A stretch of DNA of 27,150 nucleotides from Candidatus Nanoarchaeia archaeon (lineage in GTDB: Archaea; Nanobdellota; Nanobdellia; Woesearchaeales; CG1-02-33-12), in the NCBI GenBank assembly GCA_028711925.1, contig JAQTRH010000001.1:1-27150 (forward strand). Direction: 5' to 3'. The position numbers and the translations under genes are program-made. The notes under the pieces were generated by a model that ran no database searches, was not told the origin of the DNA, and worked only from the letters and a program-made list of their open reading frames with translations. Below, piece after piece: positions 3,483-15,099 of this stretch. Numbering within the stretch: the stretch's first letter is position 1; each line of letters starts with the position of its first letter.

Positions 3483-4181
3483 TTATTTTCCGAAGCGCCT
3501 TTCTCTTTTTTTGTATTCTTCAATAACATCTATTAAATCTTGTTTTTCAAATTCCGGCCACATCTTTTCAATAAAGAACCATTCAGAATAAATCGACTGC
3601 CATGTAAGGAAATTGCTTGTTCTTTTATCCCCTCCTGTCCTTATTATCAAATCAGGCTCGCTGCCAAGATCAAGGTTTTCCAATATAATCTTTTCATTTA
3701 TCTCTTCAGGATTAAGTTTGTTTTCTTTTATTTTCTCAGCAATCCTTTTCACAGCATCAACAATTTCTTCCCTTCCGCCGTAGGCAAGGGCAATGTTTAT
3801 CTTGTAATTATCATAATTTTTAGTCTTATCCATTATTTTATGAATTTCATCATTTATATAATCAGAAAAAAGATTATATCTTCCAATAAAATTAATTTTT
3901 ATTTTGTATTTGTCAATATCTTTATTTTCCATTAATTCCTTGAAAGATTCATCAAATATTTTCATAAGGTAATCAAATTCCTTTTTTGGCCTGTTAAAAT
4001 TCTGCATTGAAAAGCAGTATAATGTAAGCTCTTTTATTTTAAGCTCTCTGCACCAAACAAGAAGGTCTTTTAGCTTTTTAGAGCCGTATTCATGCCCTTT
4101 CCAGGGATTAAGATTAAGTTTTTTGGCAAACCGCCTGTTGCCGTCAAGAATAATTCCAATGTGGTTAGGTATTATGCTCAT
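3483..4181 (-). CDS. uppS: cis-prenyltransferase (undecaprenyl/polyprenyl diphosphate synthase)
   Basis: IILDGNRR, FSMQNFNR, NIALAYGGREEI, DLIIRTGGDKRTSNFL, WPEF, RRFGK. Tail-to-tail with ispH, 1-bp gap. Confidence 0.96.
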   Translation of the reverse strand: MSIIPNHIGIILDGNRRFAKKLNLNPWKGHEYGSKKLKDLLVWCRELKIKELTLYCFSMQNFNRPKKEFDYLMKIFDESFKELMENKDIDKYKIKINFIGRYNLFSDYINDEIHKIMDKTKNYDNYKINIALAYGGREEIVDAVKRIAEKIKENKLNPEEINEKIILENLDLGSEPDLIIRTGGDKRTSNFLTWQSIYSEWFFIEKMWPEFEKQDLIDVIEEYKKRERRFGK

Positions 4182-4203
4182 ATAAGAACGCTAAAACAAG
4201 CAC

Positions 4204-4211
4204 TTTATAAA
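4204..4211 (-). promoter_or_regulatory. TATA box (with A-rich BRE-like upstream) for uppS
   Basis: Minus strand CAAAAAGA-TTTATAAA, 22 nt before the ATG at 4181. Confidence 0.6.
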
Positions 4212-4223
4212 TCTTTTTGATAA

Positions 4224-6284
4224 TTAAGGCATTAGAAGTCTATCTATACTACTTATCAATGTTTGTACTTTGTTTATACCTTGGTTGTTTTCAAGTATGT
4301 AATACTTATTCTTAAGTACAACAAGTTCGTTTTCCATTATATACTCAAGTCTTTTATAATCGTTTTTATTCATCCATTTACCTTCTATACAAGAAACCTC
4401 TTCATAAAGATTATTAAAATAACTGTCCAAAACGCCTAATTCATATTCAAATTTTTTATTTGCAATGTAAACGGCATTTTCCTTCTTAGTTTTATACTGA
4501 TTTATAAATGCTTTTAGAGAATCCTCTTTGCTCCAAAAAATATAGTTCTGCAATGAATCTGCCTTATCTTTTAATTTTTTAATTAATCCTAATTCATTTT
4601 TGTATACTTCATTTTTCATTAATCCGTTAACATTTTCTATTATTTCTTCTGCAATATTTGTTTTATTTTTGATGTCTTGCTCAACTCTCTTTATAAGTGA
4701 TTCATATTCCTTTTTACATGTTTTAACATAATCAGACGCCTTTTTTATTTCTGAAATCATGTTATCATCCGAAAAAGAAAAATAAAAATTTTCTAAATCA
4801 GAAAGCTTTAAGTTAATCTGTTCAAGAGATTCGTCTGTTCCCGGGTTATCCCATTTATTATTATAAATAGTCTTTTTCAATTTCAAAAAATCCGACTCGG
4901 CCTTTCTTTTTTTCTCATCGGTTTGATCTATTAAAGTATAACGAAGTTTTTTTATTTTATCTTCAATCTGTTCATTTCCATCAAAAAACACATTATTTTT
5001 AATTATAGAGTAAAGTTCAGTATAATCATTTAATTTATAAATATAGTTGTTAATGTGGTCCACCTTATCCTTTGTAATATTTTCAAAAATTGCATCATAT
5101 TCGTAAGAAAATTCCTCTATTTCTTTTAGTTTAGTGTCTATATTTTTAAAGGCAAAAAGAAAATTTTCATTTAATATATTGTTTAATTTACTGACCTCTG
5201 TTTTATAAGCATTAACCTCAGTTTTCAGAAGTATTTCATCCATAAATTTATCATAATTATCGAAACATTGCGAATCTATTGAAATTAAATTTAAATAATT
5301 TAATTCTTCATTTTTTATCCCGTTTTGAAAGAGAGAATATGCCCTCCCAGTCAATTTTTCTATATCTTTTATTTTGCCTTCTATGGTTTTCCTTGTATTG
5401 TCAATTGTATCCATATACTTGCTTTTTATTCCTGATATGTTTTCTTTTATCTTTTCGGTATTTTTTGCTTTATCATAAACTCCTAAAGATAAATAGCAAT
5501 TTTCTATTTCATCGCTTTTTAAAATAAACTTTTCAAGTTTTTCTGAAGATGCTATCTTACTAAAACTATTTGATTTTATTATATCAACCAACTTTTCAAG
5601 ATTTTTATCAATTTCTGCCTCCTTGACATTCAATTTTCTGTTTATATAATCCCTCAATGAATGAAGTTCAGCAATTATTAATGAAGAACCCTGCTTGAAA
5701 TTTTTATTGTAAACAAGACCAGAAAACATTTTAATTTCATCATCAATATTGTCAAGTGTTTGGTGGATTATTCCTATTTTTTCTTTAAAATTTTCAAATG
5801 TTAAAGTATCAACAGCATTTTTTCTATCATAAATCTTTGACAGGATTATTTTTTTTTCATTTTCAAACTCTTTTAGCAATTCCTTATTTCTGACGAATTT
5901 CAAAGGAAAATGAACTATTTCGTTTTTTTCAATGTTTAAATCAAAATAATCATCAAATTTTAAATTTAAGTTTATTATTTTCTCTAAATCATAATTATCA
6001 ATGCAGACTTTATCTGCTACTTCTTCAAGTTTTTCATTTTCAGTTGATTGATAGTACATAGATTTCTGAAAATTAATGTCTTGAATTTTTTTAAGATGAT
6101 TGTATGAATATGAAGAAAATCCTATTAAGGATGCAATTATCAGTGCCGTAGCTGATTTCAATACTCTGTGTTTAAATCCTTTTACTGTTTCTTGTTCATT
6201 GCTTATTCTTTCATCAATTATTCTATTTGTATCAATAAAATTCAATTCTGCTTCTTTGATTATTTGTTTGTATTCTTCATTCAT
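4224..6284 (-). CDS. Hypothetical 686-aa protein: one N-proximal TM helix and a long alpha-helical K/E/N-rich region
   Basis: Long ORF; hydrophobic SATALIIASLIGFSSYSY at about residues 44-61; ATGA overlap with the upstream gene. No family recognised. Confidence 0.8.
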   Translation of the reverse strand: MNEEYKQIIKEAELNFIDTNRIIDERISNEQETVKGFKHRVLKSATALIIASLIGFSSYSYNHLKKIQDINFQKSMYYQSTENEKLEEVADKVCIDNYDLEKIINLNLKFDDYFDLNIEKNEIVHFPLKFVRNKELLKEFENEKKIILSKIYDRKNAVDTLTFENFKEKIGIIHQTLDNIDDEIKMFSGLVYNKNFKQGSSLIIAELHSLRDYINRKLNVKEAEIDKNLEKLVDIIKSNSFSKIASSEKLEKFILKSDEIENCYLSLGVYDKAKNTEKIKENISGIKSKYMDTIDNTRKTIEGKIKDIEKLTGRAYSLFQNGIKNEELNYLNLISIDSQCFDNYDKFMDEILLKTEVNAYKTEVSKLNNILNENFLFAFKNIDTKLKEIEEFSYEYDAIFENITKDKVDHINNYIYKLNDYTELYSIIKNNVFFDGNEQIEDKIKKLRYTLIDQTDEKKRKAESDFLKLKKTIYNNKWDNPGTDESLEQINLKLSDLENFYFSFSDDNMISEIKKASDYVKTCKKEYESLIKRVEQDIKNKTNIAEEIIENVNGLMKNEVYKNELGLIKKLKDKADSLQNYIFWSKEDSLKAFINQYKTKKENAVYIANKKFEYELGVLDSYFNNLYEEVSCIEGKWMNKNDYKRLEYIMENELVVLKNKYYILENNQGINKVQTLISSIDRLLMP

Positions 6285-6712
6285 TTTTCAAGAATTTGTT
6301 TTATCTTTTTGAATTTATTGTAATAATCAGAAAATTTTTCCTCATTAATTCGAAATTCATTTAATCTTTTTAATGAATTTTTATAGCCTTGATATTTTTC
6401 TTCTTTTAAAAAAAAATCTTTTATTGAATTGCTATTCTCATTTAAAATATGAATTGCACTTGAAACTTTTTCTTGAAAAAGCTTTTCAGTTTTACCTTTT
6501 TTTAAGTTATATTCTTTTAACAAGTCATTGTTTTCACTATAATTAGAAACACAATAATCCAAAAGGATTTTTTTTACATCATCAAATAGAGATATATCAT
6601 CATCAGAAATATTTTCAAAAACAGATAATTCAAGGAGTTGGTGGTTATAGTCAATCTTTTGGATCTTGTTTTGTATCTTATTTTTTTCTCTTTGAATTAT
6701 TTCTTCTTCCAT
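6281..6712 (-). CDS. Hypothetical 143-aa helical protein
   Basis: ORF packed in the operon (12-nt gap upstream, ATGA overlap downstream). Confidence 0.75.
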   Translation of the reverse strand: MEEEIIQREKNKIQNKIQKIDYNHQLLELSVFENISDDDISLFDDVKKILLDYCVSNYSENNDLLKEYNLKKGKTEKLFQEKVSSAIHILNENSNSIKDFFLKEEKYQGYKNSLKRLNEFRINEEKFSDYYNKFKKIKQILEK

Positions 6713-6724
6713 TTTAAAAACCTT

Positions 6725-7813
6725 TTAACTGTAAAATATTCTGTTAAATTCAGATTCAATTTCAGGCGTAAGGTTTTTTATTGAATTTGAAAAATTTTGG
6801 TCAATCCTCAAAGCTAAACTGTTATTTATCCTATACTGAAAACCTATTTTGTAAGATTCTAATTTTCCTTTTCCTATATTATTTAAAAATTCCATGCCGT
6901 ATTTTTCTGCGAATTTTCGAATTTTGTTTTGTCTCAAAATCTCATTTTTTGTATTTCCCTGTGTTTCATTTGATGCATACAAAAACTCCCAGAGATTAGG
7001 ATTTGCATTATTTTTTTCCATTATACTCCATAAACTATCCCCTCTCTTAAGAAAATAATCCTCTTGTATTTCCTGTTCTTGATTCAATCGTTGTGCATAG
7101 TACAACTTTTTATCAAACTCAGAAATTGTATTTTTTTCTTCTAAAAGATAAGAATAAAAATTTTTATCTCTATTCCCGCTTGCTATAACATAATAACTAT
7201 TTTTTGGATTATCATTTTCATTTAACTCAATTTTATCCTCAATCGTCTGTTCAAGTCTTTTACTTGGATTGATCTGGTCTGCATTTTCTTTTAAATCATT
7301 TCCATATCCGAAACCAACAAAAAAAGATAAAGCGCCAATAAGAGTGTATCTTACCATGCTTTTTATATTTTTTTTAAAAAAATCTTTTGTTTTATTGTAA
7401 TCCTTGGTAATAACTGCGCCTAAATATTGTTTTGGTTTTTTATACAACAAAGAAACATTTTGTATCTTGTTTTTTATTTTATTTTTAATATGTTCATCTT
7501 GTTTTACTAATCCATAATTAAAATTTTTTCTCTTTTTACTTTTTCTCCATTCAATATTTCTTCCGTTTTGATGATATTCCCTAAGTACTCTGTATAAGGT
7601 GGATACACTGAAATTGCTTTTTTTGCTGTCATCTCTTCCTTCGTTTAGTTTGTTGCATATTTCATTAACTCTTACATCATTGTTGTTGTAAATACTAATT
7701 ACTTTTTCTTTGTCATGATAACCTATTTTTCTTCCATATTTGAAACCTTTTTTTTTAGGTTCTGCATTTCCATTGCTGATTATATAGTCTATTGTTTTTT
7801 TGTCTTTCATCAT
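6725..7813 (-). CDS. Membrane protein with N-terminal HTH-like region, one TM helix and C-terminal LysM-like motif
   Basis: DKEKVISIY...VNEICNKL...FSVSTLYRVLREY (HTH-like); YTLIGALSFFVGFGYG (TM); YFLKRGDSLWSIMEK...LWEFLYASN (LysM-like). ORF is secure, domain calls are by eye. Confidence 0.65.
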   Translation of the reverse strand: MMKDKKTIDYIISNGNAEPKKKGFKYGRKIGYHDKEKVISIYNNNDVRVNEICNKLNEGRDDSKKSNFSVSTLYRVLREYHQNGRNIEWRKSKKRKNFNYGLVKQDEHIKNKIKNKIQNVSLLYKKPKQYLGAVITKDYNKTKDFFKKNIKSMVRYTLIGALSFFVGFGYGNDLKENADQINPSKRLEQTIEDKIELNENDNPKNSYYVIASGNRDKNFYSYLLEEKNTISEFDKKLYYAQRLNQEQEIQEDYFLKRGDSLWSIMEKNNANPNLWEFLYASNETQGNTKNEILRQNKIRKFAEKYGMEFLNNIGKGKLESYKIGFQYRINNSLALRIDQNFSNSIKNLTPEIESEFNRIFYS

Positions 7814-8892
7814 AAATTAAAAAGAGATTTATTAAATTTCTCATTTGTGTTAATCAGCCTGCGGTCATACACATTGGATATATCATTAAATATTGAATAG
7901 AGGATAGGATTTGAATCTCTATACTGGTTCGCCAGTTCTCTGGGATTTTTCTCAACACCAATTGCTTTTCTTATCCCTTTACCTACTATGTTCTGCACAT
8001 TGTAAGTGTAGTTTTCTATTTGGTTCACACTGTTGAACAAGGAATCTATAGCATAACTCTGCTTGTTTAGTGGATCATAAATCGGTTTTGTTATCCTGAT
8101 AAAATCAAGTATTCTCTTTGTTTTATCTATAAGTTCCTCAGAAGTAAAGGTATAAATTGATATTATCTTCTCTATTTTTTCAAGTTTTGGATCAATTTTT
8201 AGGTAATCAATAAAATTTTCTTCATTTAAGTGTAAATTGTGCACTAGCCTATCTCTTTTTCTCTCTGAGTCTTCAATTAGATTTTTTATCCTAAAATATC
8301 CATTTTCAGAAGCCTTCATTGAACCAAACTTTCTCTTTGCTAGATTATAATCTCTTATAACTTTCTCAAGTTTTTCATTTAGATAATTATGTACAGTAAT
8401 TCTTTTATCCATATCGGATGTCTTTCTTCTTCTATTATTAACCAGGCCTTTATACCTCTTGTTTAACTCAGTTGTCATTGAAAGAAGGGTTAAATTTATC
8501 TCTGAAAGATGGTTCTCTCCCAAAGTCATTATTTCATCAATTGTGTAATTTTTTCCAAAGACATTAATTTTAAAAAAATCAATTACACCATAACCTGCTT
8601 TATGAAATACTGACTTTCCTCTTATTAATTGTCTTTTGAATGCATAATTTATATTCTTAAGTTCTTTTGCTTGTCCAATTATATAAACCAAGTTTCCATC
8701 TGAATTCTTGGAAACTAAATTATTGTTTGCACTAATGGCTTGTCTTTTTTCATTTAGTAATTCTTCCATTTTAGATGTTTCGTTTGGTTCTGAATAAGCT
8801 TTTTGTTCATTTTCATTGTCCTCAACTAATTTCCATATATCTGATTCAGCTTCCTGCCTTCCATTATCATTTTCCTCTGAACTTGTTTTCAT
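7810..8892 (-). CDS. Hypothetical 360-aa soluble helical/coiled-coil protein
   Basis: ORF with SD GGAGGT 7 nt upstream; no hydrophobic segment; acidic low-complexity N-terminus. Confidence 0.8.
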   Translation of the reverse strand: MKTSSEENDNGRQEAESDIWKLVEDNENEQKAYSEPNETSKMEELLNEKRQAISANNNLVSKNSDGNLVYIIGQAKELKNINYAFKRQLIRGKSVFHKAGYGVIDFFKINVFGKNYTIDEIMTLGENHLSEINLTLLSMTTELNKRYKGLVNNRRRKTSDMDKRITVHNYLNEKLEKVIRDYNLAKRKFGSMKASENGYFRIKNLIEDSERKRDRLVHNLHLNEENFIDYLKIDPKLEKIEKIISIYTFTSEELIDKTKRILDFIRITKPIYDPLNKQSYAIDSLFNSVNQIENYTYNVQNIVGKGIRKAIGVEKNPRELANQYRDSNPILYSIFNDISNVYDRRLINTNEKFNKSLFNL

Positions 8893-8905
8893 TTTTCATA
8901 CCTCC

Positions 8906-9124
8906 TCATTTATAATCAAGATTATTATACATTATTTTTTCAATTCCTTTTTGTTTTTCTATACTCTTGGTTACCCTTTCATCAATGGTTTGATAATAAG
9001 CGTGGTTTGCATAATTTGAAATCTTAATCTCAGATTCAATAGTTTTGTTTTCACATCCTCCACCCATGTAATAACCAAGACTAAAACAGATAAAGCCAAA
9101 GAGAAATTTTCTAATAAGACTCAT
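8906..9124 (-). CDS. Small exported or membrane-anchored protein (72 aa)
   Basis: SD GGGAGG 8 nt upstream; RK followed by hydrophobic FLFGFICFSLGYYM, then GGGC. Confidence 0.75.
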   Translation of the reverse strand: MSLIRKFLFGFICFSLGYYMGGGCENKTIESEIKISNYANHAYYQTIDERVTKSIEKQKGIEKIMYNNLDYK

Positions 9125-9629
9125 TTGAATTGCCTCCCTTGTCTAAATAATTATTAATTTTTTTTTCTAGGTTTTTGTAAAAGCTGTCAACCCTGGGTTT
9201 TTGCTTATCAAGAAAATCAAGAATTTTGCTGTACTTATTTTTTAGCTCGTCCTTTATTAAAGGTTCTATTATCTTTATCTTTCTTTCATAAGGCATTTCA
9301 TTGATTCTTTCTTCAATAGTTTCATCATTCATCATGTTTATTATTTCTTTTCCATAACCATTTTCAATTCCGATCTTGCTTATTTTTATGATGTAATCCG
9401 GATAATAATTTGGATTTTTGTTTATTATTTCAAGACTGTGCTCTAAAAGCTCACTGATATCATTACCTGTTTTTCCATAAGCTGGACATTCTTCTTCTGC
9501 CACATAAATCACCTTTTCTTGTATTATTGGCTTTGCATAATTTTTGTCTGTATTTTCTGCAAAAAAACAACCTGTTAAGCCAATTGCTCCTGCCAAAAAA
9601 AATGTTGATATTGTCGTTTTGATACCCAT
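9111..9629 (-). CDS. Putative lipoprotein (172 aa)
   Basis: MGIKTTISTFFLAGAIG-LTGC: signal peptide ending in a lipobox-conforming LTGC. First gene of the operon. Confidence 0.7.
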   Translation of the reverse strand: MGIKTTISTFFLAGAIGLTGCFFAENTDKNYAKPIIQEKVIYVAEEECPAYGKTGNDISELLEHSLEIINKNPNYYPDYIIKISKIGIENGYGKEIINMMNDETIEERINEMPYERKIKIIEPLIKDELKNKYSKILDFLDKQKPRVDSFYKNLEKKINNYLDKGGNSNESY

Positions 9630-9652
9630 ATTAATTAGGTTATAGCAATAAG

Positions 9653-9660
9653 TTTTAATA
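9653..9660 (-). promoter_or_regulatory. Candidate TATA box for the six-gene accessory operon
   Basis: Minus strand TATTAAAA, 23 nt before the ATG at 9629. Confidence 0.45.
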
Positions 9661-9739
9661 AGAATTGCTGAAAAAAAACTTGATAATTTCCGCTTTTTTT
9701 GAATTTAATTGATATTTTATTGAAAGTTATTCAGAAAGA

Positions 9740-9747
9740 TATAAAAA
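9740..9747 (+). promoter_or_regulatory. BRE/TATA for the DUF357 gene
   Basis: CAGAAAGA-TATAAAAA, 23 nt before the ATG at 9771. Confidence 0.55.
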
Positions 9748-9770
9748 CTAGTTTGTTCAATTAATAGAAT

Positions 9771-10058
9771 ATGAGAACAATAACTGAAGAAAAGCTGAAT
9801 CATTATTTTGATATTACAGGCCAGGCCTTAAAAAAAGCCAAGCAAAACATAACAAAAGACTTATCCAAAAAAGGTTTTGCTAATGACTTTCTTGATATGG
9901 CCCAGAGGTATTATGATGATGCAAACTACTTCAAGGAAAAAAATGATTATGTTAACGCCTTTGCAGCGTTAAGCTACGCACACGGATGGTTAGATGCAGG
10001 CGCAAGAATTAAATTATTCAACGTGAATGATTCTAGACTATTCACTGTGGATGATTAA
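9771..10058 (+). CDS. DUF357 family protein
   Basis: DFLDMAQRYYDDANYF...DYVNAFAALSYAHGWLDAGARIKLF matches the archaeal DUF357 pattern. Confidence 0.9.
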   Translation: MRTITEEKLNHYFDITGQALKKAKQNITKDLSKKGFANDFLDMAQRYYDDANYFKEKNDYVNAFAALSYAHGWLDAGARIKLFNVNDSRLFTVDD

Positions 10059-10620
10059 TAACCATAGATATAAGATGAATGATTAATGCAATAAACACTG
10101 ATAAAGCAATAGTTGCGATAAAAAAATTCTGAAAAAAAGACTGCTGATAAACCTGGATCATCAGAGAACTGGGTAAAAATTGCCAGTTGCCCTGCGGAAA
10201 AAAAATTAAATGAAATAATTTAAAAAACGTGTTAAAAAATAGTGATGTGATAATACATAAAAAACCAATAAAGAAAATTATTAAAGTGGATTTCTTAATG
10301 TGATTAATTTTTATTTTTCTTTTGTAAACCAAAACAAAAAATGCAATTGAAAAAATAATAAAAATAAACTCCTCAAGCAGGATAAGATTTCTTACATCTT
10401 TCATGTGAGATTTTTCATCATCACTGAAATCAACATCCAGCTCTGAACTGAGCCCAGTTATATATTTAGTGACATTCTTATTAATTTCAAGAAAATAAGG
10501 GTTATCATTGTATTCTTCTATGAGTTTTTTATGAAAGTGATTACAATTCAAAAGAATATTGAATGAAAGAAGTATCAAAAAAAACGCAATCAAAAGCCCT
10601 ATTAAAAAATCTTTTTTCAT
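10042..10620 (-). CDS. DUF1461/TIGR01906 membrane protein, Lit (lipoprotein intramolecular transacylase)-like
   Basis: Four hydrophobic segments; FSDDEKSHMKDVRNL (H72) and FFKLFHLIFFPQGNWQF (H137). TAATG overlap with the cbf5 stop. Confidence 0.8.
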   Translation of the reverse strand: MKKDFLIGLLIAFFLILLSFNILLNCNHFHKKLIEEYNDNPYFLEINKNVTKYITGLSSELDVDFSDDEKSHMKDVRNLILLEEFIFIIFSIAFFVLVYKRKIKINHIKKSTLIIFFIGFLCIITSLFFNTFFKLFHLIFFPQGNWQFLPSSLMIQVYQQSFFQNFFIATIALSVFIALIIHLISMVINHPQ

Positions 10621-11618
10621 TATGATTTCTCAATCTTAGGATATGTTCCTGGAAGCATAAAAACCTTGTCTGTCTTAACAGCAAGCCCTTTCTCACCAAG
10701 CATCTCTTTTGAGCTCATCTTTGCAATTCCATAACAAATAAGCTCTTTTTTCAAAGTCATAACTGCAACAATATCCTGCTTTTCTATTCCTGAATCTAAC
10801 TGAGATATTCCTGGAAGATTAAGGTTTGCCCCATGGCATAAGCTGTCTACGGCGCTGTCAAGAACATAAATCTTTAAAAGATGCTCTACTGCCTCTTCAA
10901 TTGGCTGTATGCAATATCTGATATATTTTTCATTTTTTTCTTCGTTAAAATAATAAAATGCATCTGTCAAGTCCTGCATTGTAACAAGGTTAGTTAATTC
11001 ATTGAATGGCCCGGCCTTTGTTCTTCTAAGCTCTACCATATGCGCTCCGCATCCAAGCTGCTTTCCTATATCATGTATCAGTTTTCTTATGTATGTTCCT
11101 GCCTCGCATCCAACTTTAAAAAGAACATCCCTTTCATTAATCTCCATTATATCAATATAATAAACGCTTCTCTGCCTTTTCCTTCTTTTTACAGCGCTTT
11201 TTATAGGAGGAATCTGGTCTATCCTGCCAACAAATTTGCTGCACACTTCAGTTATCTTGTTTTCAGAGACATCTTTATGAACATGCATTAAAGCAATGTA
11301 CTCTTTTCCTGCTGTAAGGAGCAACTGAACAACACGTGTTGCTCTCCCAATTGCCAATGGAAGCACGCCTGTAACTCCTGGATCAAGAGTTCCTGAATGC
11401 CCTGCCTTGGATATGCTGAGAATTTTTTGCACATAATCGCTTACCTGGTGGCTTGTAGGGCCAGATGGCTTGTCTATATTGACTATTCCATAATTTATCA
11501 GCTCTTTGACAGGCATGTTCTCTGGAATACAACCAAATTTATCGCTTGTTTCAGCTTTTTTCCTGATTAGAATTTGTCTTTTATGCTTTTCAAAAGGCAA
11601 AAGGTTATTTTTTTCCAT
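10620..11618 (-). CDS. cbf5: H/ACA RNA-guided pseudouridine synthase Cbf5 (TruB family, PUA domain)
   Basis: GIVNIDKPSGPTSHQV, GHSGTLDPGVTGVL, KEYIALM, GCEAGTYIRKLIHDIG, ELRRTKAGPF. ATG at 11618 preferred over TTG at 11636 because TTATTAAATA (11638-11647) lies about 20 nt upstream of it. Confidence 0.96.
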   Translation of the reverse strand: MEKNNLLPFEKHKRQILIRKKAETSDKFGCIPENMPVKELINYGIVNIDKPSGPTSHQVSDYVQKILSISKAGHSGTLDPGVTGVLPLAIGRATRVVQLLLTAGKEYIALMHVHKDVSENKITEVCSKFVGRIDQIPPIKSAVKRRKRQRSVYYIDIMEINERDVLFKVGCEAGTYIRKLIHDIGKQLGCGAHMVELRRTKAGPFNELTNLVTMQDLTDAFYYFNEEKNEKYIRYCIQPIEEAVEHLLKIYVLDSAVDSLCHGANLNLPGISQLDSGIEKQDIVAVMTLKKELICYGIAKMSSKEMLGEKGLAVKTDKVFMLPGTYPKIEKS

Positions 11619-11655
11619 AAAAAAAAGATTATTCAATTATTTAATAAGGTTTTGA

Positions 11656-12234
11656 TTATTTAGAATTAGTTTTTGGCTTTTCCACCTTTTCCTTGGTTTC
11701 TTTTTTAATTACATCAGTTGCAGTTTCTGTTTTTTCTTCTTTTTTTGGTTTATCTTGTTTTTCAGGTTCTTCTTTTAATTTATTTTCAGCTGGTTTGTTT
11801 TCCTGCTCTTTTGCTTCTTTCTTTTGCTCTGTTTTATCTTCAGGTTGTTTTTTATCTTCCTTCTTTGCTGTTTTGTCTTTATCTTCTTTCTTTTCCTCAG
11901 GTTTTTCTGTTTTTTTTGCATTCTTTTTCTCTTTTTCTGGCTTTTCAACAGGAGCTCCTACCAGCTCTGCTTTAACCAATCCATCATCATACTTTTCAAC
12001 CTTTACCTTTACCTTATGCGGCGGGTTTTTAATGCCATTCTCCCACACTTTTAAGTTTAAATATTTCCCTAATTTGACGTTGTCTGACTTCATATGTTTG
12101 ATTAGAAATTCTTTTACAGCAGAGATTGTTTTTTTTGCTCTCTTGTATTTGGGAGTCTTCTGAAACTCTTTTCTAAGAGGGATAACATACTCCCTTTCAA
12201 TTACTATTTTTGACTTTTCCTCTTTCTTTGCCAT
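11656..12234 (-). CDS. rpl31e: 50S ribosomal protein L31e with long K/E-rich C-terminal tail
   Basis: EREYVIPLR, KRAKKTISAVKEFLIKHMK, LNLKVWENGIKNPPHKVKV. ATG at 12234; the track start at 12264 lies inside rpl39e. Confidence 0.95.
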   Translation of the reverse strand: MAKKEEKSKIVIEREYVIPLRKEFQKTPKYKRAKKTISAVKEFLIKHMKSDNVKLGKYLNLKVWENGIKNPPHKVKVKVEKYDDGLVKAELVGAPVEKPEKEKKNAKKTEKPEEKKEDKDKTAKKEDKKQPEDKTEQKKEAKEQENKPAENKLKEEPEKQDKPKKEEKTETATDVIKKETKEKVEKPKTNSK

Positions 12235-12236
12235 TT

Positions 12237-12410
12237 TTATGCCTTTGTCTTTGTTCTTCTCCAAGAGCGCTTAATCTCAGTATGCCTTCCTGGATGAACT
12301 TTCCTTCCCTTTCCATAAATTTTCATAACAGTCCAAAAAGGGGCCCACCTGGTTTGCTTATTGAGTTTAGCTAATCTCAGCTTTCTGCTTAAATGCTTGT
12401 ATTTTGCCAT
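12237..12410 (-). CDS. rpl39e: 50S ribosomal protein L39e (57 aa, absent from the ORF track)
   Basis: Manual translation: MAKYKHLSRKLRLAKLNKQTRWAPFWTVMKIYGKGRKVHPGRHTEIKRSWRRTKTKA*. Canonical position between PDCD5 and rpl31e. Confidence 0.93.
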   Translation of the reverse strand: MAKYKHLSRKLRLAKLNKQTRWAPFWTVMKIYGKGRKVHPGRHTEIKRSWRRTKTKA

Positions 12411-12411
12411 T

Positions 12412-12729
12412 TTATTTCCTTATAATCTTGAATCTGTCTTTTTTTGGTTGTATTCTCTTAAGCAGGTTTTTCAGTGCCTCATCATCAACTTTATTTATCC
12501 TTCCTGTGCTGATTGCCTGCCCTAAAAGTGTAATGAGCTGAATTGCAAGCTCTGGATGAGCTGTTTTTATGTTTCCATACCTTTCAAGCGCTTTTTTGGT
12601 AAGTGCTCTTTTTACCATTGATTCCAGCTGCATTATCTGTTGCTGAAATTGATAGTCATCCGAGCTGTTTTGCTGTTGTTTTTTAAGTTCCTCAAGTTTT
12701 TTTCTTTTTATCTCCTCGATATCATTCAT
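12412..12729 (-). CDS. PDCD5-like DNA-binding protein
   Basis: IEEIKRKKLEELKKQ, ALTKKALERYGNIK, KVDDEALKNLLKRI, FKIIRK; conserved position after rps19e. Confidence 0.92.
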   Translation of the reverse strand: MNDIEEIKRKKLEELKKQQQNSSDDYQFQQQIMQLESMVKRALTKKALERYGNIKTAHPELAIQLITLLGQAISTGRINKVDDEALKNLLKRIQPKKDRFKIIRK

Positions 12730-13301
12730 TTTTGCTTTGATTTATCATCAATTTTATCTTCCTTTGATGCTTTTTCAGCTGTTTTATCTTTATCTTGCTG
12801 GCTTTTTTTCTTATCAATAGTTTCAGTTTGCTTTATTTCTTTTTCTTTTTTTGTTTCTGGTTGTTTTTCAGGTTTCTTGCCTGCAATTTTAGCCGCAACT
12901 TTGTCGAGAAGAGATACTCCCTTGGGAGATATTATTCTGCCCTTATGGATTCCTTTTTCTTCTTTCTTTACAAGCTCTGCCTGCTCAAGCTGCTGGAATA
13001 TCAGCCTTATTATTTTTCCAGAAGCGCGGCAAAACTTTTCTGGCTTCACTCCCCTGTTCTTTTTACCGCCATACTTCTGCCTTAATTTTGATACTCCTAC
13101 AGGCCCATTTTTTTTTATTGTTCTTAATATAGCAGCAGCTCTTACATACCACCAGTCATCCCTTGCTGGGGGTCTCTCCTTATGAGCGCCTGTTTTAACA
13201 AACTCTGCCCATTGGGGTGGCTTTATAAACTCAATTTTTTTCAATTCTAAGGCAGTTTCCTCTATTAAATCATTTTGAGGAACATTATAAATGTTTTTCA
13301 T
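12726..13301 (-). CDS. rps19e: 30S ribosomal protein S19e with K/E-rich C-terminal tail
   Basis: PPQWAEFVKTGAHKERPP, WWYVRAAAILR, GPVGVSKLRQKYGG, ASGKIIRLIFQQLEQA. SD GGAGGT is 6 nt before the ATG at 13301 but abuts the ATG at 13307. Confidence 0.96.
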   Translation of the reverse strand: MKNIYNVPQNDLIEETALELKKIEFIKPPQWAEFVKTGAHKERPPARDDWWYVRAAAILRTIKKNGPVGVSKLRQKYGGKKNRGVKPEKFCRASGKIIRLIFQQLEQAELVKKEEKGIHKGRIISPKGVSLLDKVAAKIAGKKPEKQPETKKEKEIKQTETIDKKKSQQDKDKTAEKASKEDKIDDKSKQK

Positions 13302-13549
13302 CAGCATACCTCCGTTATTTTGCCTTTCTAAGCTAAAATAAAGGCTTAAAAGCTCTTAAAAGTTTTTTTAAATGATTTAGTTTAAAAAAGAACTTTTAAA
13401 CCTGTTAAATAAACTTCATTTAATCTTGATATATAAAATACAGGGAAAAAACAGTTATTTAAAAAGCTTTTTATTTGTAACCGTATAATTTGGTTTATTT
13501 GATCTTTTAAGAAGGTTAAAATTATTAAAAAATAAATTAAAAAGAATCC

Positions 13550-14215
13550 TTATCTTAAATCACCTATATTGATTATTGACCTTTCTAGTTTAATTGAATC
13601 GTCCATTGCTATCCTGGGACAGGCAGTATTTATGAAACACTCAATAAAAGGAAAATTTTCAAGCTGGGTGAAATCGATTGTATCAAATAATATAAAGTAA
13701 AAGTTTTTTTCTTTAAAGCTTTTTTTCAGTTCAAAGGCCTTCTCAAGATTTTTTTGGCCGGGCTTTGTTGTTAATATAACTCCTATTTCATTTGAACTGA
13801 AGAACCTAATCAAAGCGCCCTTCTTTTTTTTGTTAATCTTTTCTGCTTCCTTAAAATCAATTTTTTTAAGATTTTTTGTTATTGGATTAAAAACAAAAAC
13901 ATCTTTTTTTGTGTCCAGAGAAATTGCTATCGGGTGAAAATCGCCCGTTCCAATATAAAGGAATGCATCAACTCTCTCTTTAACTGAAGATGCTGCCAAT
14001 ACATCGCACCCAAGAACCTGCCCAGGATAAGCTGTATGACTTCCCTTCCCAACAAAAACTGTTTTTTTATGTTTTTCAAGCTCTTTTTTTATATTTTTTA
14101 AATGTTCAATGAACTGAATTGTTGCAACTAAGCCGATTTTTTCTGGAAGTTTAGAAGCAGTCTTTTCAATAAAAATAGGCTTATTGTATCTTGCTTCAAC
14201 AAACATTAATTTCAT
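13550..14215 (-). CDS. dph2: Dph2-family diphthamide synthesis protein lacking the N-terminal domain
   Basis: KIGLVATIQF, GQVLGCD, FLYIGTGDFHP, GVILTTKPGQ, FINTACPRI; 221 aa versus about 340 aa for typical archaeal Dph2. TATA TTTAAAAA (14238-14245) is 22 nt upstream. Confidence 0.85.
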   Translation of the reverse strand: MKLMFVEARYNKPIFIEKTASKLPEKIGLVATIQFIEHLKNIKKELEKHKKTVFVGKGSHTAYPGQVLGCDVLAASSVKERVDAFLYIGTGDFHPIAISLDTKKDVFVFNPITKNLKKIDFKEAEKINKKKKGALIRFFSSNEIGVILTTKPGQKNLEKAFELKKSFKEKNFYFILFDTIDFTQLENFPFIECFINTACPRIAMDDSIKLERSIINIGDLR

Positions 14216-14250
14216 TTCAATAGAGATATCTTAATGATTTTTAAATTGTT

Positions 14251-15099
14251 CTATTTTAGTATATCATAGAATGAATCAAAAATTGGCTTATCTGTGGTAA
14301 CTAAGTAAAAATCAACGCCAATTTCATCGCAAATTTTTGCTATCTTTGATATATGGTTTTCTAGCATCTGTTTGTAATTAACCTTTAATCTCGGGCTTAT
14401 GTCTGTTCTCATGATATCCTTTGTCTCAGAATCTTTTAGTTTAAAATCACCATTCAATGATAAATCCCTTTCAATGGGATCAAGCAACATTATTATTTTC
14501 ATATCGTGGTCTCCAAGCATAAAAAGAGAATTCTCTATATCTTCTGTATTAAAAAGAAAATCTGATATTATGACCACCATTGACCTTGAGTCAATCATTT
14601 TTTTGTATTTAATTATTGCATCCTTAAAATTAGAATGGCCTGTTAGTTTTATATTATTCAAGTGGTCAATCATATCAGCCAGATGTTTCATTCCCCTCCA
14701 TGACTTAAATGTTTCAAGGTTTTCAGCAAATGTTGAGAACTGAAACCTTTCATTTTCCTTCATGCAGATAAAGGCCATTCCAACCCCGAGCATTGAAGCA
14801 TAATCAAATTTAGTTGTTGTTTTTCCATAATTCATGCTTGCGCTGTGGTCAACGATTATATGTGTTGTAAGGCTTTTGTCTTCCTCATATCTCTTTATGT
14901 AAAGGTCGTCGGTTCTTGCAAATATCCTCCAGTCAATTGACCTAAAATCATCTCCTGGCGTATATATACGGTGGTCTTTTATATTCATTCCTCTTCCGCG
15001 CATCATAGAGCGTCTAGCTCCAGTATAACTTGAGGTAACTCTTTTTCTAATGACTAGGTTAAACCTGGAAAGCTGAGACAAAAACTCGCTTGTTATCAT
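14251..15099 (-). CDS. DUF58 family vWA-like protein
   Basis: DHRIYTPGDDFRSIDWRIFART, LYIKRYEE, IIVDHSASM, VVIISDF; follows moxR with ATGA overlap. Confidence 0.92.
   Translation of the reverse strand: MITSEFLSQLSRFNLVIRKRVTSSYTGARRSMMRGRGMNIKDHRIYTPGDDFRSIDWRIFARTDDLYIKRYEEDKSLTTHIIVDHSASMNYGKTTTKFDYASMLGVGMAFICMKENERFQFSTFAENLETFKSWRGMKHLADMIDHLNNIKLTGHSNFKDAIIKYKKMIDSRSMVVIISDFLFNTEDIENSLFMLGDHDMKIIMLLDPIERDLSLNGDFKLKDSETKDIMRTDISPRLKVNYKQMLENHISKIAKICDEIGVDFYLVTTDKPIFDSFYDILK

What the first reader, a model, noticed from the sequence alone, without database searches (positions are those of the whole stretch)
4224..9629. Six-gene, very AT-rich orphan operon of surface and membrane proteins
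Seen: six co-directional ORFs with two ATGA overlaps, a 14-nt overlap, 12-13 nt gaps, strong SDs and one upstream TATA. Four of six have a signal or TM segment. Spot GC counts: 9/60 at 4981-5040, 9/60 at 6361-6420 and 14/60 at 5701-5760, versus 23/60 in ispG (2221-2280). I recognise no whole-protein family. Inference: an uncharacterised envelope complex (two anchored small proteins, a soluble helical protein, a membrane-bound sensor, a long stalk), possibly for host contact in a symbiotic archaeon.
Basis: partly seen in the sequence, partly recalled or inferred. Interest (0 to 1): 0.65.

Follow-up and report, generated by a model that had tools for sequence, protein, structure and literature searches.

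The report
Enzyme-less membrane module of DPANN tagging system
Six tightly packed genes of a tiny Woesearchaeota (DPANN) archaeon encode a conserved membrane-spanning set of unnamed proteins, two with sugar-binding LysM-like domains. In sister species the same operon also carries a ubiquitin-like protein-tagging cassette, so this copy is the enzyme-free form of that larger, undescribed system.

Summary
Six co-directional minus-strand ORFs (4224-9629) have the stated overlaps and gaps. The block is the lowest-GC 5.4-kb stretch of the 918-kb assembly (26.6% against 34.1%). None of the six reaches the cut-off of any Pfam, NCBIfam, PHROG or PADLOC family.

"Orphan" is too strong. The block sits between uppS and DUF357 in the other family genomes whose flanks are assembled, and its gene-3 family was found in 12 of 13. 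dN/dS is 0.13-0.39 for all six genes. The helical protein g3 belongs to a family with 94 representative clusters, found in 21 of 401 Woesearchaeales genomes sampled.

New points:
- g6, not only g4, carries a LysM-like domain just after its membrane helix.
- g5 is a weak paralogue of the g6 helical module.
- In six family genomes a Bil-ordered cassette (GG-ended tag, HP..C protein, JAB, ThiF E1) lies between g3 and g4, and a second JAB is fused to the cytoplasmic end of g4.
- g3 homologues in other families also sit next to E1, JAB and transglutaminase-like genes.
- This genome has no ThiF or Prok-JAB match.

Best reading, held at moderate confidence: a glycan-docked trans-membrane sensing platform of a conflict or interface system. 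Function is untested. This scan had already found DPANN Ubl cassettes on other DNA.

The parts
9630..9770 (-). Intergenic region upstream of g1, divergent from the DUF357 gene. It holds an AT-rich TATA-like stretch about 30 nt before the g1 ATG and is the presumed operon promoter.
   Evidence: Sequence read. The sigma-70 consensus scan is not informative for an archaeon. The promoter is inferred, not shown.
9111..9629 (-). g1: 172-aa lipobox lipoprotein. It has a signal peptide ending L-T-G-C21, followed by a conserved, probably helical ectodomain.
   Evidence: Hydrophobic segment at residues 6-24 (KD19 1.66). Alignment A7 of 12 family members has 73% mean column identity; the lipobox Cys (AGC or TGC) is conserved, and G165 near the C-terminus is invariant. 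dN/dS is 0.17-0.26.
8906..9124 (-). g2: 72-aa small anchored protein. It has an N-terminal hydrophobic segment ending G-G-G-C24 (lipobox-like) and a tail of about 45 aa.
   Evidence: Alignment A8: Cys24 and the motif GYYMGGGCE are nearly invariant in 12 genomes. The gene overlaps g1 by 14 nt and is preceded by GGGAGG.
7810..8892 (-). g3: 360-aa protein with no signal peptide. It has a disordered N-terminus and then a long antiparallel helical bundle. It founds a DPANN-wide unnamed family and is the member most often found next to Ubl/E1/JAB genes.
   Evidence: AlphaFold model: pLDDT 67.8, helices 118-190, 199-276, 279-313 and 329-358. PDB searches gave only generic helical-bundle matches. The family profile finds 94 representative clusters and 21 of 401 genomes of the order. 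No Pfam family is shared by more than 2 of the 85 members scanned, and the few scattered hits are coiled-coil families.
6725..7813 (-). g4: 362-aa single-pass membrane protein. Cytoplasmic HTH-like domain at about residues 37-95 (DNA 7529-7705), membrane helix at about 153-174 (7292-7357), outside LysM-like domain at about 249-300 (6914-7069), and a conserved tail ending ESEFNRIFYS.
   Evidence: Alignment A2. Weak HTH matches: phrog_125 invertase HTH at E 2.5e-4; HTH_28 at E 0.0075 in the G204 homologue. LysM is the top Pfam family for the C-terminal part in 5 of 10 members, best E 0.0054, and 0.11 for the window copy. It is the only LysM-like match in the whole genome. In G204, G202, G208 and G206 an intact JAB domain (E...HSH...S..D) is fused to its N-terminus.
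6281..6712 (-). g5: 143-aa helical protein with no signal peptide. It corresponds to the C-terminal part of a 298-500-aa protein in relatives and is a weak paralogue of the g6 helical module.
   Evidence: Alignment A9. BLAST between long g5 forms and g6 gives E 4.6e-6. hhalign of A9 against A3 gives E 6e-5, probability 65%.
4224..6284 (-). g6: 686-aa single-pass protein. An N-terminal helix runs into the membrane segment (about residues 44-62, DNA 6099-6155). A LysM-like beta-alpha-alpha-beta domain follows (75-127, DNA 5904-6062), then two copies of a helical module of about 237 aa.
   Evidence: AlphaFold model: pLDDT 82.3. No PDB fold match for the whole protein. LysM is the top Pfam family for residues 65-135 in 3 of 8 family members, best E 3.4e-4. 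The G204 homologue scores 18.6 bits against a cut-off of 20.9. The profile aligns with the LysM domain of Kbp at E 0.13. The internal duplication is shown.
3483..4181 (-). uppS (cis-prenyltransferase). It is co-directional and lies 42 nt downstream of g6. It is the constant right-hand neighbour of the block and may be co-transcribed.
   Evidence: Pfam Prenyltransf, E 2.6e-73. The g6-uppS adjacency holds in all family loci where that flank is assembled.

Best explanation
SHOWN. The six genes are a single, vertically inherited operon of one family of Woesearchaeales (DPANN) archaea.

INFERRED FROM SEQUENCE FEATURES. They encode a complex built around the cell membrane.
- Outside: two lipobox-anchored small proteins (g1, g2) and the LysM-like domains of two single-pass proteins (g4, g6). 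g6 also carries a long all-helical part, placed outside with about 65% confidence.
- Inside: the HTH-like head of g4 and two helical proteins without signal peptides (g3, g5).

SHOWN. This is the enzyme-free form of a larger system. In six sister species the same operon carries, between g3 and g4, a cassette in the Bil gene order: a GG-ended tag protein, an HP..C protein, a JAB protease and a ThiF-type E1. In those species a second JAB is fused to the cytoplasmic end of g4, a transglutaminase-like protein follows, and g5 is longer. g3 homologues in other families again sit beside E1, JAB and transglutaminase-like genes.

PROPOSED MECHANISM (inferred, not shown). The LysM-like domains dock g4 and g6 on a glycan layer at the cell surface. 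Together with g1 and g2 they report a change there, such as virus attachment, host contact or wall damage. g4 relays the signal across the membrane to its HTH head, which changes transcription, and to the helical partners g3 and g5. In relatives the same platform holds the ubiquitin-like tagging and untagging enzymes at the membrane. In this genome only the sensing and scaffold part remains.
For: Operon structure and coding reality: with dN/dS of 0.13-0.39.

Conserved synteny between uppS and DUF357-Lit-cbf5 in both genera. The g3 family was found in 12 of 13 family genomes.

Topology: lipoboxes in g1 and g2. g4 has five Lys in the 15 residues before its membrane helix. In relatives g4 carries a JAB domain on its N-terminus, which must reach products of the ATP-dependent E1, so the N-terminus is cytoplasmic.

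LysM-like domains: LysM is the top Pfam family in both g6 (3 of 8 members, best E 3.4e-4) and g4 (5 of 10 members, best E 0.0054). The g6 model shows a beta-alpha-alpha-beta unit at residues 75-127. In G131 the two genes after the g3 homologue match LysM above the cut-off, at 41.1 and 26.9 bits, the second over model positions 1-15 only.

Link to Ubl conjugation: ThiF at E 8e-41 and Prok-JAB at E 7.5e-10 inside the operon of G204. The same layout occurs in G202, G205, G206, G208 and G209. The tag candidate ends ...LDLEVHFMRKGG plus 9 residues. In Type II Bil tags a conserved Gly is followed by up to nine residues, and the operon order is Ubl-E2-DUB-E1 (bioRxiv 10.1101/2023.09.26.559546). G382 and G021, from other families, have g3 next to GG-ended proteins, an HP..C protein, E1 and JAB. 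G382 also has an 847-aa JAB protein with a weak LysM match at E 0.033.

The enzymes are not found in this genome: no ThiF and no Prok-JAB match in G000, which is 89% complete.
Against: No function has been tested.

The HTH and LysM assignments are below the family cut-offs for the window's own proteins. LysM scores E 0.11 for g4 and gives no hit for g6 itself.

The topology of g6 is ambiguous by charge: +4 before the membrane segment and +3 after it. Its paralogue g5 has no signal peptide, and the best solved LysM match (Kbp) is, from my own knowledge, a cytoplasmic protein. The helical part of g6 could therefore be inside the cell.

The E2 and Ubl identities of the cassette proteins rest on motifs and gene order only. 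They gave no Pfam, PADLOC or PDB sequence match.

Earlier notes of this scan report Ubl cassettes in unrelated gene contexts in other DPANN genomes (not checked here). If so, the cassette's presence here could be an insertion into a tolerant site.

Within closely related species pairs the block does not evolve faster than its neighbours. This weakens a simple arms-race reading.
Confidence: 0.45

Rival explanations
1. Host-attachment apparatus. The LysM domains and the long helical g6 stalk bind the cell wall of a host or partner cell, and g1 and g2 are surface adaptors. The Ubl cassette in relatives would be unrelated or only regulatory.
For: The genome is a small (0.92 Mb) Woesearchaeota/Nanoarchaeota-type genome. 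There are four envelope-located proteins and LysM-like domains. The distribution is patchy and lineage-specific. g3 comes in two very divergent types.
Against: In g6 the LysM-like domain lies next to the protein's own membrane anchor, not at the tip of the stalk. That position suits binding to the cell's own surface layer. Two of the six proteins, including the widest-spread one (g3), lack export signals. The JAB fusion to g4 and the recurrent E1/JAB neighbourhood point to intracellular signalling.
Confidence: 0.2
2. Housekeeping envelope scaffold. The operon is co-transcribed with uppS, the glycan-carrier lipid synthase, and organises synthesis or anchoring of a surface glycan layer or cell division. 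The LysM domains hold the complex to that layer.
For: uppS follows g6 on the same strand at 42-54 nt in every family locus with that flank. The position among housekeeping genes is fixed. All six genes are under purifying selection.
Against: At E <= 1e-4, g4 and g6 were found only in this one family among 401 genomes of the order, apart from three weak matches to g6's LysM-like stretch in other families. g3 was found in 21 of 401. An essential scaffold should be more widespread. Gene content also varies between congeneric species.
Confidence: 0.15
3. The link to ubiquitin-like tagging is coincidental. A mobile Ubl-E2-JAB-E1 cassette landed in a permissive, AT-rich operon in some species, and the six genes have an unrelated function.
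For: Earlier notes of this scan report similar cassettes in other DPANN genomes in unrelated contexts (not checked here). Compact and extended forms both occur within one genus.
Against: The JAB domain is fused in frame to g4 in at least four species, and a JAB...LysM protein recurs in another family. g3 homologues lie next to E1/JAB/transglutaminase-like genes in at least four further genomes of other families. g5 changes form together with the cassette.
Confidence: 0.12
4. Pore-forming or membrane-remodelling set. g3, perhaps with g5 and g6, would be a ClyA-like or ESCRT-III/PspA-like helical protein that inserts into or reshapes membranes.
For: The best Foldseek rows for g3 include AhlB/AhlC, SmhB, ClyA and YaxAB (E 0.014-0.1, TM 0.3-0.55). 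VIA-align rows include Vipp1, PspA, CHMP4B and an Asgard ESCRT-IIIB at Z 10-11. An AAA ATPase follows the g3 homologue in G021.
Against: All these scores lie within the range the tool gives for unrelated helical bundles. The top rows are designed four-helix bundles. g3 has no hydrophobic head (maximum KD19 0.74). None of the 85 family members matches Snf7, PspA or a ClyA-type family.
Confidence: 0.05
5. Remnant of an integrated virus or mobile element, which would explain the low GC.
For: The block is the lowest-GC window of the genome. No cellular family matches.
Against: It occupies the same chromosomal site in two genera. There are no flanking repeats, integrase or tRNA. There are no significant PHROG matches and no relatives in 2.9 million viral contigs with g3 or the g1 profile. 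The block is under purifying selection.
Confidence: 0.03

Closest known systems
BilABCD (bacterial ISG15-like) ubiquitination-type antiphage operons, Types I and II (Chambers et al., bioRxiv 10.1101/2023.09.26.559546; Hor et al., bioRxiv 10.1101/2023.09.04.556158)
   Same: In sister species the operon contains a cassette in the same order (tag, HP..C protein, JAB, E1). The tag candidate ends in GG followed by 9 residues, as described for Type II Bil tags.
   Different: The window's own operon has none of the four enzymes or tag, and the genome shows no ThiF or Prok-JAB match. Even in relatives the tag and E2 candidates match no Bil or other model. The set is archaeal and is joined to membrane and surface proteins. 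A second JAB is fused to a membrane protein. No such partners came up in the passages I read of the Bil paper, where the word 'transmembrane' does not occur.
Single-pass membrane-bound transcription regulators of the ToxR/CadC type (from my own knowledge)
   Same: g4 has the same layout: a cytoplasmic N-terminal HTH-like head, one membrane helix and an outside sensor domain. Small co-encoded envelope proteins could act as partners.
   Different: The head resembles transposase or invertase-type HTHs, and only weakly, not an OmpR-type winged helix. The sensor is LysM-like. The organism is an archaeon. DNA binding is untested.
LysM-domain envelope proteins (Pfam PF01476)
   Same: Both g4 and g6 carry the Y-x-[VI]-x-x-G-[DE]-[TS]-L start of the motif. 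g6 has a predicted beta-alpha-alpha-beta unit directly after the membrane anchor.
   Different: Scores are below the Pfam cut-off for all family members (best 18.6 bits against 20.9). The ligand in a DPANN archaeon is unknown.
DPANN Ubl-E2-JAB-E1 cassettes noted earlier by this scan on other genomes (e1-1162815, e1-712519, e1-5777178)
   Same: Same kind of cassette and same phylum.
   Different: This locus is the partner set without the cassette. The earlier notes are unchecked AI notes and are used here only as agreement, not as evidence.

Membership tests
BilABCD-type ubiquitin-like conjugation operon | E1 (ThiF-type adenylating enzyme) encoded in the operon | tested here: not met
   No ThiF match anywhere in G000, which is 89% complete, and none among the six proteins. 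The feature is met in relatives: ThiF at E 8e-41 in the G204 operon.
BilABCD-type ubiquitin-like conjugation operon | JAB/JAMM deubiquitinase | tested here: not met
   No Prok-JAB match in G000. In relatives there are two JAB proteins, one fused to g4 with an intact HSH...S..D motif.
BilABCD-type ubiquitin-like conjugation operon | Ubl with a conserved C-terminal Gly, and an E2 with a catalytic Cys | tested here: not met
   The window has no homologue of either cassette family: neither c5 nor c12 has a member in the window in the all-against-all clustering. In relatives the candidates are inferred from the ...RKGG+9 ending, the HP..(10-11)..C motif and the gene order only. They gave no database match.
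LysM domain (PF01476) | Sequence match at or above the Pfam gathering score | tested here: inconclusive
   g4 of the window scores 12.8 bits, E 0.11. The g6 region of the window gives no hit. LysM is the top family in 5 of 10 g4 homologues and 3 of 8 g6 homologues, best E 0.0054 and 3.4e-4. The G204 g6 homologue scores 18.6 bits against a cut-off of 20.9.
LysM domain (PF01476) | beta-alpha-alpha-beta fold | tested here: met
   Met for g6: strands 75-79 and 123-127 flank helices 86-93 and 100-108, with pLDDT about 67-82. g4 was not modelled here.
ToxR/CadC-type membrane-bound one-component regulator | Cytoplasmic N-terminal DNA-binding domain, single membrane helix, extracytoplasmic sensor | tested here: inconclusive
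   The layout is met. The HTH is supported only weakly: phrog_125 at E 2.5e-4, FUR at E 0.035, HTH_28 at E 0.0075 in a relative. It is not an OmpR-type winged helix, so g4 is not a family member in the strict sense.
Lipobox lipoprotein | Signal peptide ending [LVI][ASTVI][GAS]C | tested here: met
   g1 has L-T-G-C21 (A-G-C in most relatives). g2 has G-G-G-C24, which is nearly invariant but departs from the first two positions of the pattern. The lipid-attachment enzymes were not searched for.
ClyA-family alpha-pore-forming toxins | Elongated helical bundle with a hydrophobic head or tongue | tested here: not met
   Fold rows reach only E 0.014-0.1. g3 has no hydrophobic segment (maximum KD19 0.74).
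ESCRT-III / PspA / Vipp1 superfamily | Long alpha1-alpha2 hairpin with family-level sequence or fold match | tested here: inconclusive
   Z is 10-11 for Vipp1, PspA, CHMP4B and an Asgard ESCRT-IIIB, below the noise level of about 13 quoted for helical models. None of the 85 g3-family members hits Snf7 or PspA_IM30.

The most novel reading that the evidence does not exclude
The six proteins are the membrane receptor and substrate platform of an archaeal ubiquitin-like signalling pathway that reads the state of the cell surface. Glycan-bound LysM ectodomains would control, across the membrane, a DNA-binding head and, in relatives, membrane-tethered tagging and untagging enzymes. That would be a surface-sensing, membrane-anchored Ubl pathway outside eukaryotes, and this genome would show that the platform can work without the enzymes.
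Probability: 0.2. Interest if true: 0.8.

Novelty: new variant of a known kind. Interest (0 to 1): 0.55.

Why it matters
DPANN archaea have very small genomes, yet this family keeps 5.4 kb of unnamed genes at a fixed site. That suggests the genes do something the cells need.

The comparison with sister species gives these proteins their first functional context. They are the membrane and surface partners of a ubiquitin-like tagging cassette that resembles bacterial antiviral Bil systems.

If the link is functional, it offers a way to ask two questions: what prokaryotic ubiquitin-like systems tag and where, and how a symbiotic archaeon senses events at its surface. The natural pairs of enzyme-free and enzyme-bearing versions in congeneric species are a ready-made comparison.

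It also adds LysM-like domains on archaeal membrane proteins, whose ligand in such cells is unknown.

Tried and rejected
- Family scans of all six proteins in Pfam, NCBIfam, PHROGs and PADLOC: nothing at or near a cut-off.
- Paralogues in the genome: none for g4 or g6.
- g3 fold: Foldseek against the PDB gave best E 0.014. VIA-align against 48,161 chains put designed four-helix bundles on top. Profiles of 12 and 85 sequences against PDB sequences gave only coiled-coil noise. A Pfam scan of 85 family members found no shared family. The ESM Atlas gave only unnamed Nanobdellota clusters and a sub-threshold TelA lead at 0.87. ClyA-like, ESCRT-III/PspA-like and TelA-like readings were therefore not adopted.
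- g6 whole-model Foldseek: only alpha-solenoid noise, TM below 0.2.
- g3 is not related to g6 (hhalign probability 0.1%). The two LysM-like regions do not align with each other at profile level.
- Recent-insertion or virus origin: rejected on conserved synteny, no bordering repeats, and no viral relatives.
The one family genome without a g3 match (G210, 79% complete) has DUF357 at a contig end and no uppS match. In other families uppS and DUF357 are 5 kb to more than 200 kb apart, or on different contigs (G007).
- Import of type-B g3 from another family: not supported. Types A and B are sisters in a quick tree, with SH-aLRT 95 (the careful search did not finish).
A profile scan of genome contigs failed for lack of conserved columns.
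- The tally of 21 of 401 genomes includes one unpublished genome (G282). No other claim rests on it.

Full report
WHAT IS THERE

The window is contig 61 of a 918-kb, 108-contig assembly that is 89% complete. Close relatives are labelled Candidatus Woesearchaeota or Nanoarchaeota MAGs.

Six minus-strand ORFs fill 4224-9629:
- g1: 9111-9629, 172 aa
- g2: 8906-9124, 72 aa
- g3: 7810-8892, 360 aa
- g4: 6725-7813, 362 aa
- g5: 6281-6712, 143 aa
- g6: 4224-6284, 686 aa

Clear Shine-Dalgarno sequences precede only g2 and g3. uppS lies 42 nt further on, on the same strand.

The block has 26.6% GC against 34.1% for the genome. It is the lowest of 813 sliding windows of its size.

None of the six proteins reaches a curated cut-off in Pfam or NCBIfam, or gives a significant match in PHROGs or PADLOC. 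Neither g4 nor g6 has a paralogue in the genome.

NOT ORPHANS, AND NOT A RECENT INSERT

The g3 family was found in 12 of the 13 family genomes held. In every locus assembled far enough, the genes lie in the same order between uppS and DUF357-Lit-cbf5.

In the same-genus genome G010 the six proteins are 49-65% identical, against 77-93% for the flanking genes.

Nei-Gojobori dN/dS is 0.13-0.39 for all six genes in three independent species pairs. These are real genes under purifying selection. In two of the three pairs they are no more diverged than their neighbours. In five of seven relatives checked the block is also 2-4 points lower in GC than the rest of the locus; in the other two the difference is under 1 point.

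There are no bordering repeats and no viral relatives. The low GC is therefore a long-standing property of the operon and does not mark a new arrival.

THE SIX PROTEINS

g1 has a signal peptide ending L-T-G-C21 (A-G-C in most relatives) and a well-conserved body.

g2 has a hydrophobic start ending in a nearly invariant G-G-G-C.

g4 has three parts:
- a conserved HTH-like stretch, with weak matches to invertase and transposase HTHs;
- one membrane helix with a Lys-rich N-side;
- a C-terminal part that begins Y-x-[LI]-x-[KR]-G-D-[ST]-L-W.

g6 was modelled with mean pLDDT 82. One helix (residues 2-73) includes the membrane segment. A beta-alpha-alpha-beta unit follows at 75-127, then helical modules. 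The last module of about 237 aa is duplicated relative to the 450-aa form found in six relatives.

LysM is the top Pfam family for the g6 unit in 3 of 8 family members (best E 3.4e-4). It is also the top family for the g4 C-terminal part in 5 of 10 members (best E 0.0054). All scores are below the gathering score. The g4 site is the only LysM-like match in the whole genome.

g3 has no export signal. Its model (pLDDT 68) is a bundle of very long helices. No solved structure matches it better than designed helical bundles do.

g5 has no export signal either. It equals the C-terminal third of a longer protein in relatives and is weakly related to the g6 module.

THE WIDER FAMILY OF g3

A profile of the 12 g3 sequences finds 94 representative clusters among 1.84 billion proteins, nearly all 300-370 aa long. 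It also finds 21 of 401 sampled genomes of the order. Thirteen of these lie outside the family, and one of the thirteen (G282) is unpublished.

No Pfam family is shared by the members. At E <= 1e-4, the g4 C-terminal part was found only inside the family. So was g6, apart from three weak matches to its LysM-like stretch in other families.

THE LINK TO UBIQUITIN-LIKE TAGGING

In six family genomes (G202, G204, G205, G206, G208, G209) about 5.5 kb is present between g3 and g4. In G204 it reads as follows:
- a 146-aa protein;
- a 414-aa protein;
- a JAB protein (Prok-JAB, E 7.5e-10);
- a ThiF-type E1 (E 8e-41);
- a 761-aa protein that is a JAB domain fused to the N-terminus of g4, with the metal-binding motif HSH...S..D intact;
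- a transglutaminase-like protein;
- a 500-aa protein whose end is g5.

The 146-aa family ends ...LDLEVHFMRKGG plus nine residues. The 414-aa family has an H-P...C motif like E2 enzymes. Both assignments are inferred: neither family matches any Pfam, PADLOC or PDB sequence.

The order tag, E2-like, JAB, E1 is that of BilABCD operons. The Type II tags of those operons have a conserved Gly followed by up to nine residues (bioRxiv 10.1101/2023.09.26.559546, read).

Outside the family, g3 homologues have these neighbours:
- G382: a lipoprotein gene before g3; after it, two GG-ended proteins, an E2-like protein, an E1, an 847-aa JAB protein with a weak LysM match, and transglutaminase-like genes.
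- G021: an AAA ATPase and an E2-like/JAB/E1/JAB set.
- G100 and G056: a transglutaminase-like gene.
- G131: two proteins that match LysM above the Pfam cut-off (the second over only the first 15 model positions).
- G022, G167 and G295: only a gene of 165-179 aa immediately upstream; in G167 and G295 its product has an N-terminal membrane anchor, in G022 it shows none.

The window's genome has no ThiF and no Prok-JAB match. The window therefore holds the enzyme-free form of a system that elsewhere includes a complete tagging set.

Earlier notes of this scan had reported such cassettes in other DPANN genomes. I reached the link independently, and I treat those notes as agreement only.

AN UNEXPLAINED PATTERN

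g1, g2 and g6 follow the split between the two genera. g3 instead falls into two types that are only about 22% identical. Type A occurs in G000, G010, G142 and G207, and so crosses the genus boundary. Type B occurs in the rest.

In a quick tree the two types are sisters (SH-aLRT 95), and type A sits on a very long stem. Within a type, g3 is as conserved as the housekeeping genes. Possible causes are episodic divergence, old allelic types, or exchange between lineages. I cannot tell which.

HOW IT MOST LIKELY WORKS

Shown:
- one conserved operon;
- the enzymes are present in relatives and not found here.

Read from motifs, hydropathy and models, not shown by experiment:
- four proteins with membrane or lipid anchors;
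- two LysM-like domains next to membrane helices;
- an HTH-like head on g4, on the side where a JAB domain is fused in relatives.

Inferred:
- The g4 head is cytoplasmic and its LysM-like part is outside.
- g6 has the same orientation (about 65% confidence).
- The outside parts, together with g1 and g2, dock on a surface glycan and report changes there.
- g4 passes the signal to transcription and to g3 and g5.
- In relatives the same platform holds the tagging and untagging enzymes at the membrane.

Three things favour a conflict or interface role over housekeeping: the patchy spread, the variable gene content between congeneric species, and the Bil-like partner. The evidence does not decide between virus defence and host contact.

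RIVALS AND REJECTED READINGS

These are set out in their own sections.

LIMITS

No experiment has been done. The HTH and LysM calls are below threshold for the window's own proteins. The E2 and Ubl calls in relatives rest on motifs.

Noticed in passing
window 3483-4181 (uppS) and 4182-4223: uppS lies on the same strand only 42 nt downstream of g6, and 45-54 nt downstream in every family locus with that flank. No obvious TATA box lies between them. It may belong to the same transcript.
   Followed up: partly
window 4224-5093 against 5112-5800 (inside g6): g6 shows a length polymorphism. A helical module of about 237 aa is duplicated in G000, G010, G204 and G209 (656-693 aa; the G209 frame is cut by its contig end) but single in six other family genomes (about 450 aa). 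The DNA still shows a 711-nt-spaced repeat.
   Followed up: partly
g3 across family loci (window 7810-8892; L008, L021, L022-L029): There are two g3 types only about 22% identical. Their distribution cuts across the two genera, while g1, g2 and g6 follow the genus split. The cause is unexplained.
   Followed up: partly
L007 (G010) 3731-5300: ispG of the same-genus genome looks broken. Only residues 1-82 match, and the frame is split into pieces of 153 and 76 aa.
   Followed up: no
L008 12422-16292; L021 48-4700; L026 1136-5800: In G142, G207 and G205 a set of four genes (SAM methyltransferase, HAD hydrolase, TPP enzyme, radical SAM) lies between g1 and DUF357. The window has no such set.
   Followed up: no
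L056 (G021) 11044-14325: The g3 homologue is followed by a 258-aa protein, a classic AAA ATPase (516 aa; PF00004, E 8.6e-18) and a 329-aa protein. The E2-like/JAB/E1/JAB genes come after these.
   Followed up: no
L051 (G022) 9379-10854: In a different family the g3 homologue also lies next to the DUF357 gene, here convergent with it. The neighbourhood may be old.
   Followed up: no
window 10042-10620: A Lit-like (lipoprotein intramolecular transacylase) gene lies 400 nt from two lipobox-protein genes (g1, g2). A link between them was not examined.
   Followed up: no
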